This document shows, piece after piece, positions 21,469 through 46,486 of a DNA stretch of 64,000 bases. Each line of letters begins with the position of its first letter. Positions within the stretch are counted from its first letter, which is position 1. The stretch comes from Blastocatellia bacterium (lineage in GTDB: Bacteria; Acidobacteriota; Blastocatellia; RBC074), in NCBI GenBank assembly GCA_033763135.1, contig JANRKY010000047.1, positions 4,210-68,209 of the forward strand, read 5' to 3'. The translations under genes and the position numbers were made by a program. Under the pieces are notes generated by a model, which saw only the letters and a list, made by a program, of their open reading frames with translations, was not told where the DNA came from and ran no database searches.

Positions 21469-21650
21469 CGAAAATCAGGGCGGGGGGCGATTCTGTCGCC
21501 CAACCCATTGAAAACACAAAAGCCTCAGGCGCATTGGGTGAAATTGCGCGTCTGAGGCTCAGAGTTGTCCCTGATTCGTCAAGGCGGAGTTCGACCGCCA
21601 TTGAAGACCACGCCGCGCTCTTTCATCCGAAGAGGGGTCGAAATTTTTCT

Positions 21651-21850
21651 TCAGGCAGGTCTCCTGACTCGGCATTCAATCAACGCGGCCTTCTCGCTCC
21701 GGAGGTCGGCGCAATGGCGCAGAGGTGCGTTGATCTTCGTTCCGGCGGACTGGCCGGACGTCATTGCCTTACAGTGGCGGTGACCGTGCGGGATTTACAC
21801 CCGCTTCCCTATTCTCCCGGCGCGTGTTGGCGACCGGGCACCCGAAGATT
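21651..21850 (-). promoter_or_regulatory. Cobalamin riboswitch
   Basis: Minus strand reads GGTGC...AATAGGGAAGCGGGTGTAAATCCCGCACGGTCACCGCCACTGT...GAGTCAGGAGACCTGCC (B12 box), directly upstream of btuF. Confidence 0.93.
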
Positions 21851-22184
21851 ATGAAAAGAACATTCTTGCTTGCCTACTTGCTTGCCTTCTTGCTTGATCG
21901 ACATCGAAAGCGGAACGTATCACGCCTTTCCGCGGGGCGTCAATGCTGAATGAAATGGGGGTGGAATGAAATATAACTTGAGCCGGCGACCGGAAACGGT
22001 GTAAACATGAGCCGTCCCGGAAGGCGCCCTTACTCCGCCGCCGCCAATCGGTCCCCAAAAAAATGTGTAATATGCGAGGGCGATATCTCACTAAAGGATT
22101 GAACATCGAGAGGACTCCCTCCAGGAAAATCGATCGCGAAAATAGATTGCACTGATTCAATATCAAGAATAGGAAAAAAAATCT

Positions 22185-42170: not shown

Positions 42171-45100
42171 ATGAAAAAGTGGACAACGATTATCTTTGCC
42201 TGGGTGGCAGTGATTGCGCTGTTGCTGATAGTTGCGCGTTTTATGTTGCCGATGATGGGGCTGGCGGGCGTGGAGGGAGAATATGTCCAGCCGCTGGTGC
42301 GATTGATGCCGGCGTCGATTACGATGCTGGTGGGGTCGATTGCGATGATCGTGTTCGATCTGCGCCGGCAGGCGAAGTTTGTGGACGTCAGGCCGAAGCG
42401 GTTGGTGGATGAGGCAGAGGGGTGGAGCAGCGATTTTGTGGTGGGAGAGGGAGATATGAGCCGCCGGGTCAACTGGCAGCCGCTGGCGAGCATGGAGCCG
42501 GAAGGGCGTCGGAAGAACGGGAACGGAAATGGGGCGGGGGCGAAGGCGGGGAGGTCGGCGCGGGTGATTCCGGAGAGAAAGGGCGTTGTGGAGGAGGTTC
42601 GCGCGGAGTCGGTTTCGGCGGGCGCAGCGGGGCGGGGCGGCGAGCAGGTCGTCGAGGTCGTGTACGCGGAGCCGGTGGAGGAGTCGTTCGAGATGCCGGA
42701 GCGGGCGGCGGAGGCGGAGGTCGTAGATTGCGTGGTCGTGGCGAGGAGCGAGGATCAGATGGAGTTCTCGCCGGCGGAGGAGCAGGGCGAGGGCGTCGAT
42801 GTGGTCGAGTTGGAGGCGATGCCGGTCGTGGAGCGGCGGCCGTTGCGCGTGACGGTGGATCTGCCGGAAGAGCCGGCGATTCCCGAGGAGGTTTCGGCGG
42901 CGGGCGCGCCGGGCGTCGAAGCGGAACAAGAGGCGGATCAAGCGGAGAGGGCCGTTGTGAGCCAGGAGGTGGTGGCGCGCTACCGGCATCTGGTTGATGC
43001 GGCGCAGTCGTCCGCGACCTCGCTCAATCAGCTTCCGCCGCCGTTGCCGGAGTTCACGGGGCGCGAGTTCGAGCTGGAAGAGTTCGTGGCGGAACACAAT
43101 CGGTTTCAGACGCGGTTGCTGGGAATGCAGGGACTGGGCGGCGTCGGAAAGACGACGCTGGCGCTGAAACTGGCCGACCAGTTGAAGGAGCAGTATCCGG
43201 ATGCGCAGTTCTATCTCGACCTGAAGGGGGCGAGTCCGCTGCCGTTGCCGGTTGCGGAGGCGCAGGCGCACATCATTCGCGCGTACCTGCCCACGGTTCG
43301 CCTGCCGGAGAGCGAAGCGGAATTGAATCATCTGTACCGGTCGCTGCTGCTGGACAAGCGGGTGCTGCTGCTGCTGGATAATGCAGTCAACACGCAGCAG
43401 GTGCAGGGACTGGTCGCGCCGGGCGAATGCCTGACGATCATCACCTCGCGGCAGCCGGTGCTTCTGCCCGGCATGTTCTCGCGCCAGTTGGAGGGGCTGC
43501 CGGCTCCGGAGGCGCGGGAGATTCTCCAGCGGCTGGCGCCGCGAGTGGGGGCGCTGGCGGATCGGGTTGCGGAATTGTGCGGGTATCTGCCGCTTGCGCT
43601 GCGTCTGGCGGCGAGCACGCTGGCCTTTGAGCCGTCGTTGCGGGTGGAGGAGTATGTCGACCGGCTCGGAGAACTCAAGCAGACGGAGCGGCTCCGCCAT
43701 CCGGTCGATGCCGTGGTCACCCTGGCGTACGACCTGCTGGCGCCGTCGCTGCAGAAGCTCTGGCGGTTGCTGGCCGTCTTCTCCGACACCTTCGATGGAA
43801 GCGCGGCGGCCTCGATCTGGACGCTCAATCCGGCGCACGCGGAGACGGCGCTCGATCGGCTTCTGGCCGGAAGCCTGATTGAACGAAATCGCGCCTCGGG
43901 GCGATATCGTCTGCACGACCTGATGTCGGCTTTCGCCGAGACCCGGCTGACGGAGGAGGAGCGGGCCCTCGCCTGCCAGCGCCATTCCGCCCATTACCAG
44001 AGCGTGCTGCACGAGGCCGATGCGCTCTACGAACAGGGCGGCGACCTGTTCAAGCTCGGTCTGGATCTGGTCGATATGGAATGGATGAATATTCAATCCG
44101 GGCAGGTCTGGGCGGCGTCGAATATGACCCGGGACCGCGCGGCCTGCGAACTCTGCAACTCCTATCCCGATGCCGGCAAATTTGTGCTCGACCTCCGGCA
44201 GCATCCGCGCGAGCGCATCCGCTGGAGCGAGGCGGCCCTGGAGGCCGCGCAGCGGATGAATCGGAGCAAGTCGAGCGCGCGTCATCTGATCGGGCTGGGA
44301 GATTCCTATATCGCACTCAGCGAAGTTCACCATGCCATCGAGTTTTACGAGCGGGGATTGAAGCTCGCGAGCGGCGCGAAGGACCGGCGCGCCGAAGCCG
44401 AGAGTTTGAGCGGCCTCGGGAATGCCTATTATCTGGGCGGGGGGCTCGGGCGGGCCCGGGAGGTTCACGAGAAGGCGATGGAGCTGTTCGCGGCGCTCGG
44501 GGACCGGCGCGGCGTCGCCGATTCGCTCGGAAATCTGGGCATGGCCCACTACGCGATGGGGGAAGTCCGCAAGGCCGCCGATCTCTTTGCGCGGCAATTG
44601 AAGGCGGCGCGGGAGAGCGGCGACCGGCGCAACGAGTCGATCGCGCTCGGCGGACTAGGGCTGACGCAATATGTGATGGGAGATTCCCGGCGGGCTGCGG
44701 AGCTGTTCAATCAGCAGCTTGCGATCACGCGGGAGATCGGCGATCGGCGCGGCGAGGCCGTGGCGCTGAGCAATCTCGGAAACGCCTGCGCGACGCTCGA
44801 ATACACGCAGCAGGCCATTGCCTATCACGAGCAGGCGCTGACGATCGCCCGCGAGATGAGCGATCGCCGCGCCGAAGCGACCGCGCTCGGGGGACTGGGC
44901 GTGGCGGAGTATCTGGCGAAGAACGTGGCCCGCTCCGTCGAACTGCTCGAATCGCAGTTGAAGCTCACGCGCGAGATCGGCGACCGGCGGGGCGAAGCGA
45001 TCGCGCTCGGCAACCTTGGCGAAGCGCGCATCGCCTCGGGCGATGCGGCCGCCGCGATCGAGCCGCTCAAGCAGGCCTTTCAGGTCGCCAGCCAGATCGG

Positions 45101-45272
45101 GGACGTTCAGGCGCAGGGCAACGCGCTCTTCCATCTGGCGATTGCGCTCGACGACCTCGGCGAGCGCAAACAGGCGATCCGGCAGGCCGAGTCCGCGCTC
45201 GAACTCTTCCGCGTCGAGGGCCATCCCAGTGCCGACCTCGTGAAGAGACAGCTCGACTCCTGGCGGGGATGA
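42171..45272 (+). CDS. Membrane-anchored NB-ARC (STAND) NTPase with C-terminal TPR array
   Basis: Two N-terminal TM helices, Glu/Val-rich linker, FTGRE, GLGGVGKT, LLLLDN, ITSR, CGYLPLAL, LHDL motifs, and about 7 GDRRGEA-type TPRs. Confidence 0.88.
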   Translation: MKKWTTIIFAWVAVIALLLIVARFMLPMMGLAGVEGEYVQPLVRLMPASITMLVGSIAMIVFDLRRQAKFVDVRPKRLVDEAEGWSSDFVVGEGDMSRRVNWQPLASMEPEGRRKNGNGNGAGAKAGRSARVIPERKGVVEEVRAESVSAGAAGRGGEQVVEVVYAEPVEESFEMPERAAEAEVVDCVVVARSEDQMEFSPAEEQGEGVDVVELEAMPVVERRPLRVTVDLPEEPAIPEEVSAAGAPGVEAEQEADQAERAVVSQEVVARYRHLVDAAQSSATSLNQLPPPLPEFTGREFELEEFVAEHNRFQTRLLGMQGLGGVGKTTLALKLADQLKEQYPDAQFYLDLKGASPLPLPVAEAQAHIIRAYLPTVRLPESEAELNHLYRSLLLDKRVLLLLDNAVNTQQVQGLVAPGECLTIITSRQPVLLPGMFSRQLEGLPAPEAREILQRLAPRVGALADRVAELCGYLPLALRLAASTLAFEPSLRVEEYVDRLGELKQTERLRHPVDAVVTLAYDLLAPSLQKLWRLLAVFSDTFDGSAAASIWTLNPAHAETALDRLLAGSLIERNRASGRYRLHDLMSAFAETRLTEEERALACQRHSAHYQSVLHEADALYEQGGDLFKLGLDLVDMEWMNIQSGQVWAASNMTRDRAACELCNSYPDAGKFVLDLRQHPRERIRWSEAALEAAQRMNRSKSSARHLIGLGDSYIALSEVHHAIEFYERGLKLASGAKDRRAEAESLSGLGNAYYLGGGLGRAREVHEKAMELFAALGDRRGVADSLGNLGMAHYAMGEVRKAADLFARQLKAARESGDRRNESIALGGLGLTQYVMGDSRRAAELFNQQLAITREIGDRRGEAVALSNLGNACATLEYTQQAIAYHEQALTIAREMSDRRAEATALGGLGVAEYLAKNVARSVELLESQLKLTREIGDRRGEAIALGNLGEARIASGDAAAAIEPLKQAFQVASQIGDVQAQGNALFHLAIALDDLGERKQAIRQAESALELFRVEGHPSADLVKRQLDSWRG

Positions 45273-45312
45273 GGCGACGCATTCGCCAAGCGTCCGCCGA
45301 TACAATTGTTCG

Positions 45313-45662
45313 GGATGGGGAGCGAAAAAGAAGGGGTGTGCAAGGGCAACCGCTTGGCCGTAAACGGGGCTTCATTTGAACCTGTCTGTAACAGGTGGGT
45401 GACCTTGAAAAGCCCTGCGGCGTAAGAGATTCGCGCGTTGGCGATCGTGCTTGCCGACAGGAAGCATCGGCCTCCCGATCAAACGAATTGGCTCAAATAG
45501 AAGTGCCGCCGCCTACTAACGTCGCAGTCGCCCTGCAACGATCGGTATGCTAGCCGAGGGGGTAGACCCGGTCAATACCCTTAATCAAAATCTTTTCCGC
45601 GCGTCGGAAGAGGCGACCGCTTGACCGGCTCTGGTGGGTTGGTTATCCTTTCTTCTTTTTCG
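45313..45662 (+). ncRNA. Candidate structured non-coding RNA, family not recognised
   Basis: TACAAT -10 box at 45301; 11-bp terminal helix 45323-45333/45652-45662; nested helices and a possible pseudoknot; no ORF. Confidence 0.55.
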
Positions 45663-45825
45663 ATATGAGAAAGTTTCCGCTGGCGTCAGCCGGAGGGCGT
45701 GCGTTGGTCAGCGGCAAGCGAGAGAGAGAATGAAAGGGGCCGGGGTTCTGCCTGCGGGCGGAATTCCGAACGATTTCGAGGCGTAGTTCAGGTCGGATTG
45801 CGACGCCCGGAAAGAATGAAAATCT

Positions 45826-45899
45826 CATCCACGAAGACACACGAAGAAACACGAAGACGATGCTTCCCTTCGTGTTTCTTCGTGTAACTTCGTGGATGA
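45826..45899. repeat. CACGAAG tandem-repeat palindrome
   Basis: CATCCACGAAGACACACGAAGAAACACGAAG...CTTCGTGTTTCTTCGTGTAACTTCGTGGATG. Confidence 0.8.
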
Positions 45900-45922
45900 T
45901 TTCCTGAGGAGAGTTTTTCAGC

Positions 45923-46486
45923 ATGGCCATCAAGGCGAATCAAATTCGGAAGGGCATGATCCTGATTCATAATGGGGTGCCGCATAGAGTCATCGAGTTT
46001 CATCATCACACGCCGGGGAATCTGCGAGCGATGGTGCAGACGCGGATGCGGAATCTGAAGAGCGGCAGCACGCTGGAGCACCGGTTCAGCTCGACCGAGG
46101 CGGTGGACCGGGCGGTTCTCGATGAGCAGGAGATGACCTATCTCTATCCCGAGGGCGACACCTATTATTTCATGAACACCGAGACGTATGAGCAGATTGG
46201 ATTGAGCGCGGAGGAGCTGGGAGACAGCATCGGCTATCTGCTTGCGGACACGGTGATCAAGGTGGAGTTTTACGAGGGAGCGCCGATCGGCATCGAGATT
46301 CCGCTGGTGGTGGAACTGGTGGTGGTGGAGACGGAGCCCGAGATCAAGGGGGCGACGGTGAGCAACGTCGGCAAGCAGGCGAAGCTCGAAACGGGGATCA
46401 CGATTCAGGTGCCCGCCTTCATCAAGGAGGGGGAGAAGATCCGGGTGGATACGACCGAGGGACGGTACATCGAGCGCGCGAAATAG
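45923..46486 (+). CDS. efp: Elongation factor P
   Basis: IRKGM, PG loop, [39 protein letters not shown]. Confidence 0.95.

What the first reader, a model, noticed from the sequence alone, without database searches (positions are those of the whole stretch)
45301..45662. Candidate novel ~340-nt structured ncRNA upstream of efp
Seen: TACAAT at 45301. Closing helix CGAAAAAGAAG (45323) / CTTCTTTTTCG (45652). Long-range helix GCTTCATTTGA (45369) / TCAAAT-A-GAAGT (45493) enclosing ACCTGT/ACAGGT, GATCG/CGATC and TGCTT/AAGCA stems. Further hairpins TCGGT/GCCGA, GGGTA/TACCC and CTTTTCCG/CGGAAGAG. Loop CCGGTCAA (45568) is complementary to TTGACCGG (45621), a possible pseudoknot. A 14/16 internal direct repeat GGCRACCGCTTGRCCG occurs at 45345 and 45612. 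I found no hallmarks of tmRNA, RNase P, SRP, tRNA or group II intron domain V. Inference: an independently transcribed large structured RNA (ribozyme-like or scaffold).
Basis: partly seen in the sequence, partly recalled or inferred. Interest (0 to 1): 0.75.

Follow-up and report, generated by a model that had tools for sequence, protein, structure and literature searches.

The report
Ordinary 6S RNA gene beside efp
The flagged stretch holds an ordinary 6S RNA gene, the small RNA that mimics an open promoter and holds back RNA polymerase, lying on the opposite strand and flanked by two back-to-back promoters, not a new 340-base RNA.

Summary
They do not add up to a 340-nt plus-strand RNA: that span folds no better than shuffles (z -0.61).

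The core, window 45343-45533 on the MINUS strand, is a full-length match to Rfam 6S/SsrS RNA (RF00013). It scores 46.8 bits against a cut-off of 46.4 and is the only 6S match in the genome. Orthologues in relatives score up to 71.4 bits.

A MAFFT alignment of 49 distinct sequences gives a rod-shaped fold with 20 of 38 pairs changed on both sides and 96.7% of cells paired. None of 500 shuffles reached this. Read as the other strand, only 86.6% pair.

A TTGACC-17-TAGCAT promoter sits 13 nt upstream, and 48 of 49 loci have the same layout. Short contigs from RNA libraries of three studies lie wholly inside 45320-45527.

The rest of the flagged span is the divergent promoter region shared with efp. 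Its "closing helix" joins the tail just past the 6S 3' end to the efp start region, and it is not conserved.

Verdict: a known family, of low interest.

The parts
45343..45533 (-). 6S (SsrS) RNA gene, core as delimited by the Rfam model (191 nt)
   Evidence: RF00013, 46.8 bits against a gathering score of 46.4, model positions 1-187 of 187. It is the only 6S match in the genome. Orthologues score up to 71.4 bits. Covariation is shown.
45320..45540 (-). Probable transcript (about 220 nt): start inferred from the promoter, 3' end inferred from RNA-library contigs
   Evidence: The -10 box ends at 45547, so a start near 45540 is an inference. Whole contigs from RNA libraries cover 45320-45527 (X15), 45322-45524 (X16) and 45340-45510 (X19) with 0 differences. 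Contigs show neither strand nor exact ends.
45547..45575 (-). 6S promoter: -35 TTGACC (45575..45570), 17-nt spacer, -10 TAGCAT (45552..45547)
   Evidence: One of only 2 promoter-like sites in 45200-45960 (shuffle mean 0.2). 48 of 49 distinct 6S loci have TTGACN-N16-18-TANNNT ending 12-14 nt before the model start (alignment by eye).
45505..45533 (-). Closing stem, 5' strand (RNA positions 1-29)
   Evidence: Helices 1-4, with both-side changes at 9 of 15 pairs. For example, column pair 4/219 is GC in 24 sequences and AU in 18.
45343..45369 (-).
   Evidence: D2.
45490..45503 (-).
   Evidence: Paired in the Rfam consensus. A duplex is predicted in all 30 sequence combinations tested. No covariation was seen on alignment A2.
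45370..45382 (-). It also supplies the 3' strand of the alternative helix (45371-45379)
45477..45489 (-). 5' side of the central bubble. Positions 45479-45487 can instead pair with 45371-45379 as a helix like the 'central bubble collapse helix'
   Evidence: Unpaired in the Rfam consensus. The alternative helix has both-side changes at 6 of 9 pairs, 91.9% of cells paired, and no shuffle of 500 reaches its covariation score.
45380..45396 (-).
   Evidence: Helix 8: 7 pairs, 97.4% of cells paired.
45397..45476 (-). Internal/terminal stem-loop domain (RNA positions 58-137)
   Evidence: Helices 5-7, with both-side changes at 10 of 16 pairs. For example, column pair 94/146 is CG in 23 sequences and UA in 20.
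45621..45649 (+). Divergent promoter-like site pointing to efp: TTGACC, 17 nt, TATCCT
   Evidence: The motif (read on the 6S strand as ATAGCCAAC-N-GTCAAG) recurs in 17 of 49 loci (seen by eye).
45923..46486 (+). efp (elongation factor P) gene, divergent neighbour of the 6S gene
   Evidence: ORF. tblastn found efp in 15 of 25 relatives' loci, on the strand opposite 6S. A 6S gene lies upstream of efp on the opposite strand in 35 of 73 efp-anchored loci.
45323..45333 (.). On the minus strand it reads CUUCUUUUUCG, the pyrimidine-rich tail just past the 6S 3' closing strand
   Evidence: RNA-library contigs end at 45320 and 45322.
45652..45662 (.). It lies at the expected efp transcription start, upstream of the 6S promoter, so it is outside the 6S transcript
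   Evidence: The arms are degraded in same-genus L003 and absent in L004.

Best explanation
Window 45343-45533 on the minus strand encodes the genome's single 6S (SsrS) RNA.

The RNA is transcribed from its own sigma-70-type promoter (TTGACC-17-TAGCAT, 45575..45547). It ends near 45320, giving roughly 200-220 nt.

It folds into the rod typical of the family: a closing stem, a central bubble and a terminal stem.

By analogy with E. coli 6S and B. subtilis 6S-1 RNA, the expected mechanism is inferred and was not tested here:
- The RNA binds the housekeeping RNA polymerase holoenzyme as a mimic of an open promoter.
- It is released when the polymerase copies a short product RNA from the 5' side of the bubble into helix P2.

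The centre of the RNA can adopt two mutually exclusive, nearly equal-energy folds:
- helix P2 plus an open bubble;
- a 3'-bubble hairpin plus a helix between the far part of the 5' bubble and the 3' strand of P2, which resembles the 'central bubble collapse helix' described for B. subtilis and A. aeolicus.

The remaining flagged sequence (45534-45662) is the divergent promoter region shared with efp.
For: Shown:
- Full-length RF00013 hit on the minus strand, above the gathering score. It is the only 6S hit at E <= 1 in the 8-Mb genome.
- The same DNA is found in 25 of 41 genomes searched, including 22 of 24 from the same family.
- 17 of 20 of those loci hit RF00013 at E <= 0.01, and 11 reach the cut-off; the best scores 71.4 bits.
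- A model built from 18 sequences found 59 sense-strand matches at 69-213 bits in 97 sources.
- On a MAFFT alignment of the 49 distinct sequences, RNAalifold predicts closing stem, bubble and terminal stem. 20 of 38 pairs change on both sides (157 cells) and 96.7% of cells pair. None of 500 shuffles reaches any of the five measures, and the slid controls pair in 33-46% of cells.
- Strand: U-G pairs are invariant in 49 of 49 sequences at two positions. 96.7% of cells pair on the sense strand against 86.6% on the antisense.
- Promoter: (48 of 49 loci).
- RNA libraries of three studies each hold a short contig (171-208 nt) lying wholly within 45320-45527, identical to the window.
- Two alternative central folds. 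Median energy difference is -1.1 kcal/mol; 38 of 48 sequences favour P2 and 10 favour the hairpin form.

From the literature:
- The P2 / collapse-helix / 3'-bubble-hairpin scheme comes from PMC8876501 (passages read).
Against: - The window's own Rfam score is only 0.4 bits over the cut-off. 6 of the 17 orthologue hits fall below it, and 3 of 20 loci gave no hit at E <= 0.01; one of those three has withheld bases.
- Helix P2, which the family model requires, shows no covariation here (3 pairs with both-side changes, matched by 310 of 500 shuffles; 78.8% of cells paired). The 5' strand is visibly misaligned in about 15 rows of that alignment.
- The single-sequence minimum-energy fold of the window RNA is the collapsed form, not the open bubble.
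- Contigs give neither strand nor true ends, and RNA libraries can contain DNA.
- Binding to RNA polymerase and product-RNA synthesis were not tested.
Confidence: 0.93

Rival explanations
1. One reading: a novel RNA of about 340 nt on the plus strand (45301-45662), closed by the 11-bp helix 45323/45652 and started from TACAAT at 45301.
For: - The 11-nt inverted repeat is perfect, and the word occurs only at these two places in 64 kb.
- In same-genus L003 the two changed positions of the arms would still pair as G-U if read on the plus strand. I derived this by eye from the strings printed.
Against: - The plus-strand fold is no better than shuffles (z -0.61).
- Conservation beyond the genus stops at about 45585, and the arms are absent in same-genus L004.
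- The covarying pairs include 211 G-U cells that become mismatches on the plus strand.
- The promoter scan found no plus-strand site at 45301. Its only plus-strand site (45621-45649) would start transcription at about 45656, downstream of nearly the whole proposed RNA.
- The core is a known family on the other strand.
Confidence: 0.02
2. A longer minus-strand 6S precursor starts upstream of 45662. The outer helix (45662..45652 with 45333..45323) brings its ends together for processing, as with long 6S precursors in E. coli (that comparison is recalled, not checked here).
For: - The minus-strand 362-nt fold uses this helix and has z -2.43.
- The perfect 11-bp repeat exists.
- RNA-library contigs reach 45320, so the 3' arm is in RNA.
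Against: - The promoter scan of 45200-45960 found only one minus-strand site, and it lies below 45662.
- The helix is not conserved: it is degraded in L003 and absent in L004 and more distant relatives.
- Most of the z-score is explained by the 6S core alone (z -3.65).
- The 5' arm coincides with the conserved purine-rich stretch next to the efp -10 box, which explains its presence.
Confidence: 0.04
3. A decayed or non-functional 6S relic that merely keeps similarity to the family.
For: The Rfam score is borderline for the window (46.8 against 46.4).
Against: - It is the only copy in the genome.
- Compensatory changes are maintained across 49 sequences.
- The promoter is conserved in 48 of 49 loci.
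- It is present in RNA libraries of three studies.
Confidence: 0.01

Closest known systems
6S / SsrS RNA, Rfam RF00013 (type member: E. coli ssrS)
   Same: - Full-length model match above the gathering score.
- About 190 nt core, with a closing stem, central bubble and terminal stem.
- Own sigma-70-type promoter and a single copy in the genome.
   Different: - Gene context: here it is divergent from efp. The E. coli zapA-ssrS-ygfA locus is recalled, not checked here.
- Earlier scan notes e1-724208 and e1-1395449 place 6S between zapA and rny in other Acidobacteriota (unchecked).
- According to PMC8876501, gamma-proteobacterial 6S forms a 9-bp 3'-bubble hairpin only after product-RNA synthesis. 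In this RNA a 7-bp hairpin is predicted already in the free form.
[quoted passage not shown]
   Same: - A small hairpin on the 3' side of the bubble in the free RNA.
- A conserved alternative helix between the far part of the 5' bubble and the 3' strand of P2, matching the definition in PMC8876501 (passages read).
   Different: - Only structural analogy was tested; sequence relatedness to those RNAs was not compared.
- Here the alternative helix is long (9 bp) and about as stable as the P2 form.
- B. subtilis has two 6S paralogues (from the abstract of PMC10578484 in the listing). This genome shows one.

Membership tests
6S / SsrS RNA (RF00013) | Score at or above the Rfam gathering score, over the full model | tested here: met
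   46.8 bits against 46.4, model positions 1-187 of 187, minus strand. Of 20 orthologous loci, 11 are at or above the cut-off, 6 are below it and 3 gave no hit at E <= 0.01.
6S / SsrS RNA (RF00013) | Rod-like fold of closing stem, large central bubble and terminal stem, supported by covariation | tested here: met
   RNAalifold on an unfitted MAFFT alignment of 49 sequences: 38 pairs, 20 of them with both-side changes, 96.7% of cells paired, 0 of 500 shuffles as high.
6S / SsrS RNA (RF00013) | Helix P2 (downstream helix) bordering the bubble | tested here: inconclusive
   It can form in all 30 sequence combinations tested and is in the Rfam consensus. It shows no covariation on A2 and only 78.8% of cells paired, but those columns are partly misaligned.
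6S / SsrS RNA (RF00013) | Expressed as a discrete small RNA of about 180-200 nt | tested here: inconclusive
   Whole contigs of 171-208 nt from RNA libraries of three studies lie within 45320-45527 with 0 differences. Contigs show no strand, ends or level, and such libraries can carry DNA.
6S / SsrS RNA (RF00013) | Binds the housekeeping sigma holoenzyme and templates a short product RNA | not testable with these tools
   This needs a gel shift and in vitro transcription with purified RNA polymerase.
B. subtilis-type 6S (collapse-helix type) | Alternative helix between the far 5' bubble and the 3' strand of P2, plus a 3'-bubble hairpin in the free RNA | tested here: met
   Alternative helix: 6 of 9 pairs with both-side changes, 91.9% of cells paired, no shuffle of 500 reaching the covariation score (that alignment was fitted to a model holding 7 of these pairs). 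Hairpin: 97.4% of cells paired on the unfitted alignment. The definition comes from PMC8876501.

The most novel reading that the evidence does not exclude
In this Blastocatellia lineage, the central fold that covaries is the 'collapsed bubble' form (3'-bubble hairpin plus collapse helix). The canonical helix P2 shows no covariation. The two forms are within about 1 kcal/mol of each other.

The 6S RNA could therefore be a naturally bistable variant that rests closed and is opened by RNA polymerase.

Its gene is also locked in a conserved back-to-back promoter pair with efp, with the two -35 boxes 45 nt apart. That might couple polymerase sequestration to expression of elongation factor P.
Probability: 0.2. 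Interest if true: 0.3.

Novelty: already known. Interest (0 to 1): 0.12.

Why it matters
It matters little beyond correct annotation.

- The gap between the TPR-repeat gene and efp should be annotated as ssrS (6S RNA) on the minus strand, with its promoter.
- The finding removes a false 'novel ribozyme-like RNA' lead.
- Two small points may interest 6S specialists. The divergent ssrS-efp pairing is conserved in Blastocatellia-like genomes, unlike the zapA-linked loci noted elsewhere in the phylum. There is also clear covariation for the collapse helix, which has so far been argued mainly from B. subtilis and A. aeolicus.

Tried and rejected
- **RNA cover of the outer half.** No contig of the four RNA-library runs laid covers 45538-45778.
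- **X18 contigs.** One spans 45250-45433 at depth 2.7, which could be read-through, antisense or DNA. Another lies on the palindrome at 45779-45902 with 11 differences and loose ends, so it is another copy or another organism. Neither was used.
- **Duplex search for the outer arms.** RNAduplex output with long internal loops could not be interpreted. I used only the printed flank strings.
- **Formal covariation test of helix P2.** It gave nothing above shuffles. The 5' strand columns of A2 are misaligned for about 15 rows, so the test is inconclusive rather than negative.
- **Sub-threshold Rfam 'microRNA' hits at 45815-45908.** Rejected: they only reflect a long palindromic repeat.
- **Terminator scan.** It found no terminator-like site for the 6S gene. 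The single hit (plus strand, 45622-45645) overlaps the efp promoter and is no more than shuffles give (mean 1.0).
- **Earlier scan notes.** Look-ups by place and by sequence returned nothing.
- **Literature.** The search for '6S RNA' with 'Acidobacteria' found 5 papers, 4 of them listed, none with either term in title or abstract (listing only). A follow-up read of PMC2864571 failed on a search term that was too short and was not repeated.
- **Supplementary files.** None were consulted.

Full report
**Observation**

- The repeat finder reports the perfect 11-nt inverted repeat 45323-45333 / 45652-45662.
- It also reports the 12-nt, 92% inverted repeat 45564-45575 / 45621-45632.
- It also reports the 16-nt, 88% direct repeat 45345 / 45612.
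- The 11-mer occurs without mismatch only at those two places in the 64-kb window.

As one molecule, the 362-nt plus strand folds no better than shuffled sequence (z -0.61; 25 of 100 shuffles fold as well). The minus strand of the same span gives z -2.43. The 191-nt core on the minus strand gives z -3.65 (0 of 200).

**What it is**

A scan of the whole window against Rfam gave two matches above threshold.
- One is a cobalamin riboswitch elsewhere in the window.
- The other is 6S/SsrS RNA (RF00013) at 45343-45533 on the minus strand. It scores 46.8 bits against a gathering score of 46.4 and covers model positions 1-187 of 187.

This is the only 6S match at E <= 1 in the 7.99-Mb, 96.5%-complete genome.

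The score is borderline, so I tested it with relatives.
- The 362-nt stretch has DNA matches in 25 of 41 genomes searched, including 22 of 24 of the same family.
- Beyond the genus, the matches cover only query positions of about 78-320, which is window 45343-45585.
- Of 20 of these loci scanned against Rfam, 17 hit RF00013 at E <= 0.01. Eleven were at or above the cut-off (best 71.4 bits), six were below it, and three gave no hit.
- A covariance model built from 18 sequences found 59 sense-strand matches (69-213 bits) in 97 sources. It also found three weak antisense matches.
- Ten of the sense matches were duplicates, leaving 49 distinct sequences.

Record titles of the efp-anchored relatives are Blastocatellia and Acidobacteriota metagenome-assembled genomes.

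**Structure and strand**

I used a MAFFT alignment of the 49 distinct sequences, which is not fitted to any structure. On it, RNAalifold predicts a closing stem, a central unpaired region, a long internal/terminal stem and a small hairpin on the 3' side of the bubble.
- 20 of 38 pairs have changes on both sides (157 cells).
- 96.7% of 1860 cells are standard pairs.
- None of 500 column shuffles reaches any of the five measures.
- Sliding the 3' partners by 1-3 columns drops pairing to 33-46%.

Two U-G pairs are invariant in 49 of 49 sequences, and the structure holds 211 G-U cells. Read as the opposite strand, only 86.6% of cells pair. So the RNA is on the minus strand.

**Promoter and ends**

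The promoter scan of 45200-45960 found just two sites, against a shuffle mean of 0.2.
- Minus strand: TTGACC-17-TAGCAT at 45575..45547.
- Plus strand: TTGACC-17-TATCCT at 45621-45649.

The minus-strand site is conserved. 48 of 49 loci have TTGACN-N16-18-TANNNT ending 12-14 nt before the model start (visible). That places the start near 45540, which is an inference.

Six RNA libraries were listed as holding 0.21-0.27 of the sampled words of a 701-nt query, and the 191-nt core is 0.27 of that query. When four of them were laid:
- X15 gave one whole contig at 45320-45527;
- X16 gave one at 45322-45524;
- X19 gave one at 45340-45510.

All three had 0 differences and came from three different studies. 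Contigs show presence only, not strand or true ends. They fit an RNA of about 200-220 nt that runs some 20 nt past the Rfam 3' end, through the pyrimidine-rich tail.

**What the rest of the flagged span is**

The span 45534-45662 is the divergent promoter region between the 6S gene and efp (45923-46486, plus strand).
- efp lies on the opposite strand next to 6S in 15 of 25 relatives' loci.
- Conversely, 35 of 73 efp-anchored loci carry a 6S match upstream on the strand opposite efp.
- Most of the 38 loci without a match have efp at 61% identity or less and titles from other classes. Five have efp at 79-84% identity.

- **The 'pseudoknot'** (CCGGTCAA / TTGACCGG) is the two -35 boxes facing away from each other.
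- **The TCGGT/GCCGA and GGGTA/TACCC hairpins** lie over the 6S -10 and -35 boxes.
- **The direct repeat** joins the 3' closing strand of 6S to the sequence around the efp -35 box. Only the GGTCAAG part recurs in relatives.
- **The 'closing helix'** joins the tail just after the 6S 3' end to the efp start region.
  - The latter lies upstream of the 6S promoter and so outside the 6S transcript.
  - The arms are degraded in same-genus L003 and absent in same-genus L004 and in more distant relatives.
- **The TACAAT at 45301** was not reported as a promoter by the scan.

**Mechanism**

By membership in the family, the RNA should bind the housekeeping holoenzyme as an open-promoter mimic. It should be released after synthesis of a short product RNA. 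This is inferred and not tested here.

One detail is visible in the sequences. The 3' strand of helix P2 (45370-45382) can pair in two ways:
- with the P2 5' strand (45490-45503), as in the Rfam consensus;
- with the far part of the 5' bubble (45479-45487), while its first bases close the 3'-bubble hairpin.

Both duplexes are predicted in essentially all sequence variants. P2 is predicted in 30 of 30 combinations. The alternative helix has 7 bp or more in 29 of 30.

The two helices differ in covariation.
- The alternative helix covaries: 6 of 9 pairs have both-side changes (22 cells), and no shuffle of 500 reaches its covariation score. The caveat is that this alignment was fitted to a model holding 7 of these pairs and includes three antisense rows.
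- P2 does not covary on the same alignment. There the caveat is misaligned columns.

Forced-fold energies are close. The median difference is -1.1 kcal/mol. 38 of 48 sequences favour P2 and 10 favour the hairpin form. For the window the values are -79.2 against -79.6.

This matches the scheme in PMC8876501 (passages read). There, product-RNA synthesis unwinds P2. In B. subtilis 6S-1 and A. aeolicus 6S, a 'central bubble collapse helix' then forms between the 3' strand of P2 and the far 5' bubble, next to a small 3'-bubble hairpin.

**Comparison and novelty**

This is a member of a known, curated family and would be found by any Rfam-based annotation. Two earlier scan notes (e1-724208 and e1-1395449, not checked here) describe ordinary 6S genes between zapA and rny in other Acidobacteriota. 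The efp-linked position here is therefore a lineage-specific context, not a new kind of element.

One row of the alignments (L007, from genome G005) comes from an unpublished genome. Its 6S sequence is identical to that of the public locus L049, and no claim depends on it.

**Verdict**

It is an ordinary 6S RNA on the other strand. Interest is low.

Noticed in passing
window 45815-45908: A 94-nt near-perfect palindrome (32-nt arms, 94% complementary, built of CACGAAGA-type 10-mers) lies in the efp leader. It is a dispersed repeat. The search of the window's own genome listed 100 matches, about half of them the same places read on the other strand, at 88-99% identity. Some copies stand in tandem at 128-nt spacing (for example C342:1018/1146/1274 and C257:42494/42622/42750). 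It produces spurious sub-threshold 'microRNA' hits in Rfam.
   Followed up: partly
L005 2642-2735; L009 433-544 and 2434-2533: Relatives carry long hairpins near their 6S/efp loci that also give sub-threshold microRNA-family hits. They may belong to related palindromic repeat families.
   Followed up: no
window 21637-21860 (-): Cobalamin riboswitch, RF00174, 101 bits against a gathering score of 31.5.
   Followed up: no
window 45621-45922 (+): If the conserved TTGACC-17-TATCCT site is the efp promoter, the efp leader here is about 265 nt. In relatives such as L007 the whole 6S-efp gap is only about 207 nt. The extra length includes the inserted palindromic repeat.
   Followed up: partly
window 42171-45272 (+): A 1033-aa ORF with TPR-like repeats converges on the 6S gene. 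tblastn found this neighbour only in the two same-genus loci, L003 and L004. The TPR label is my reading of the repetitive sequence and comes from no family search.
   Followed up: no
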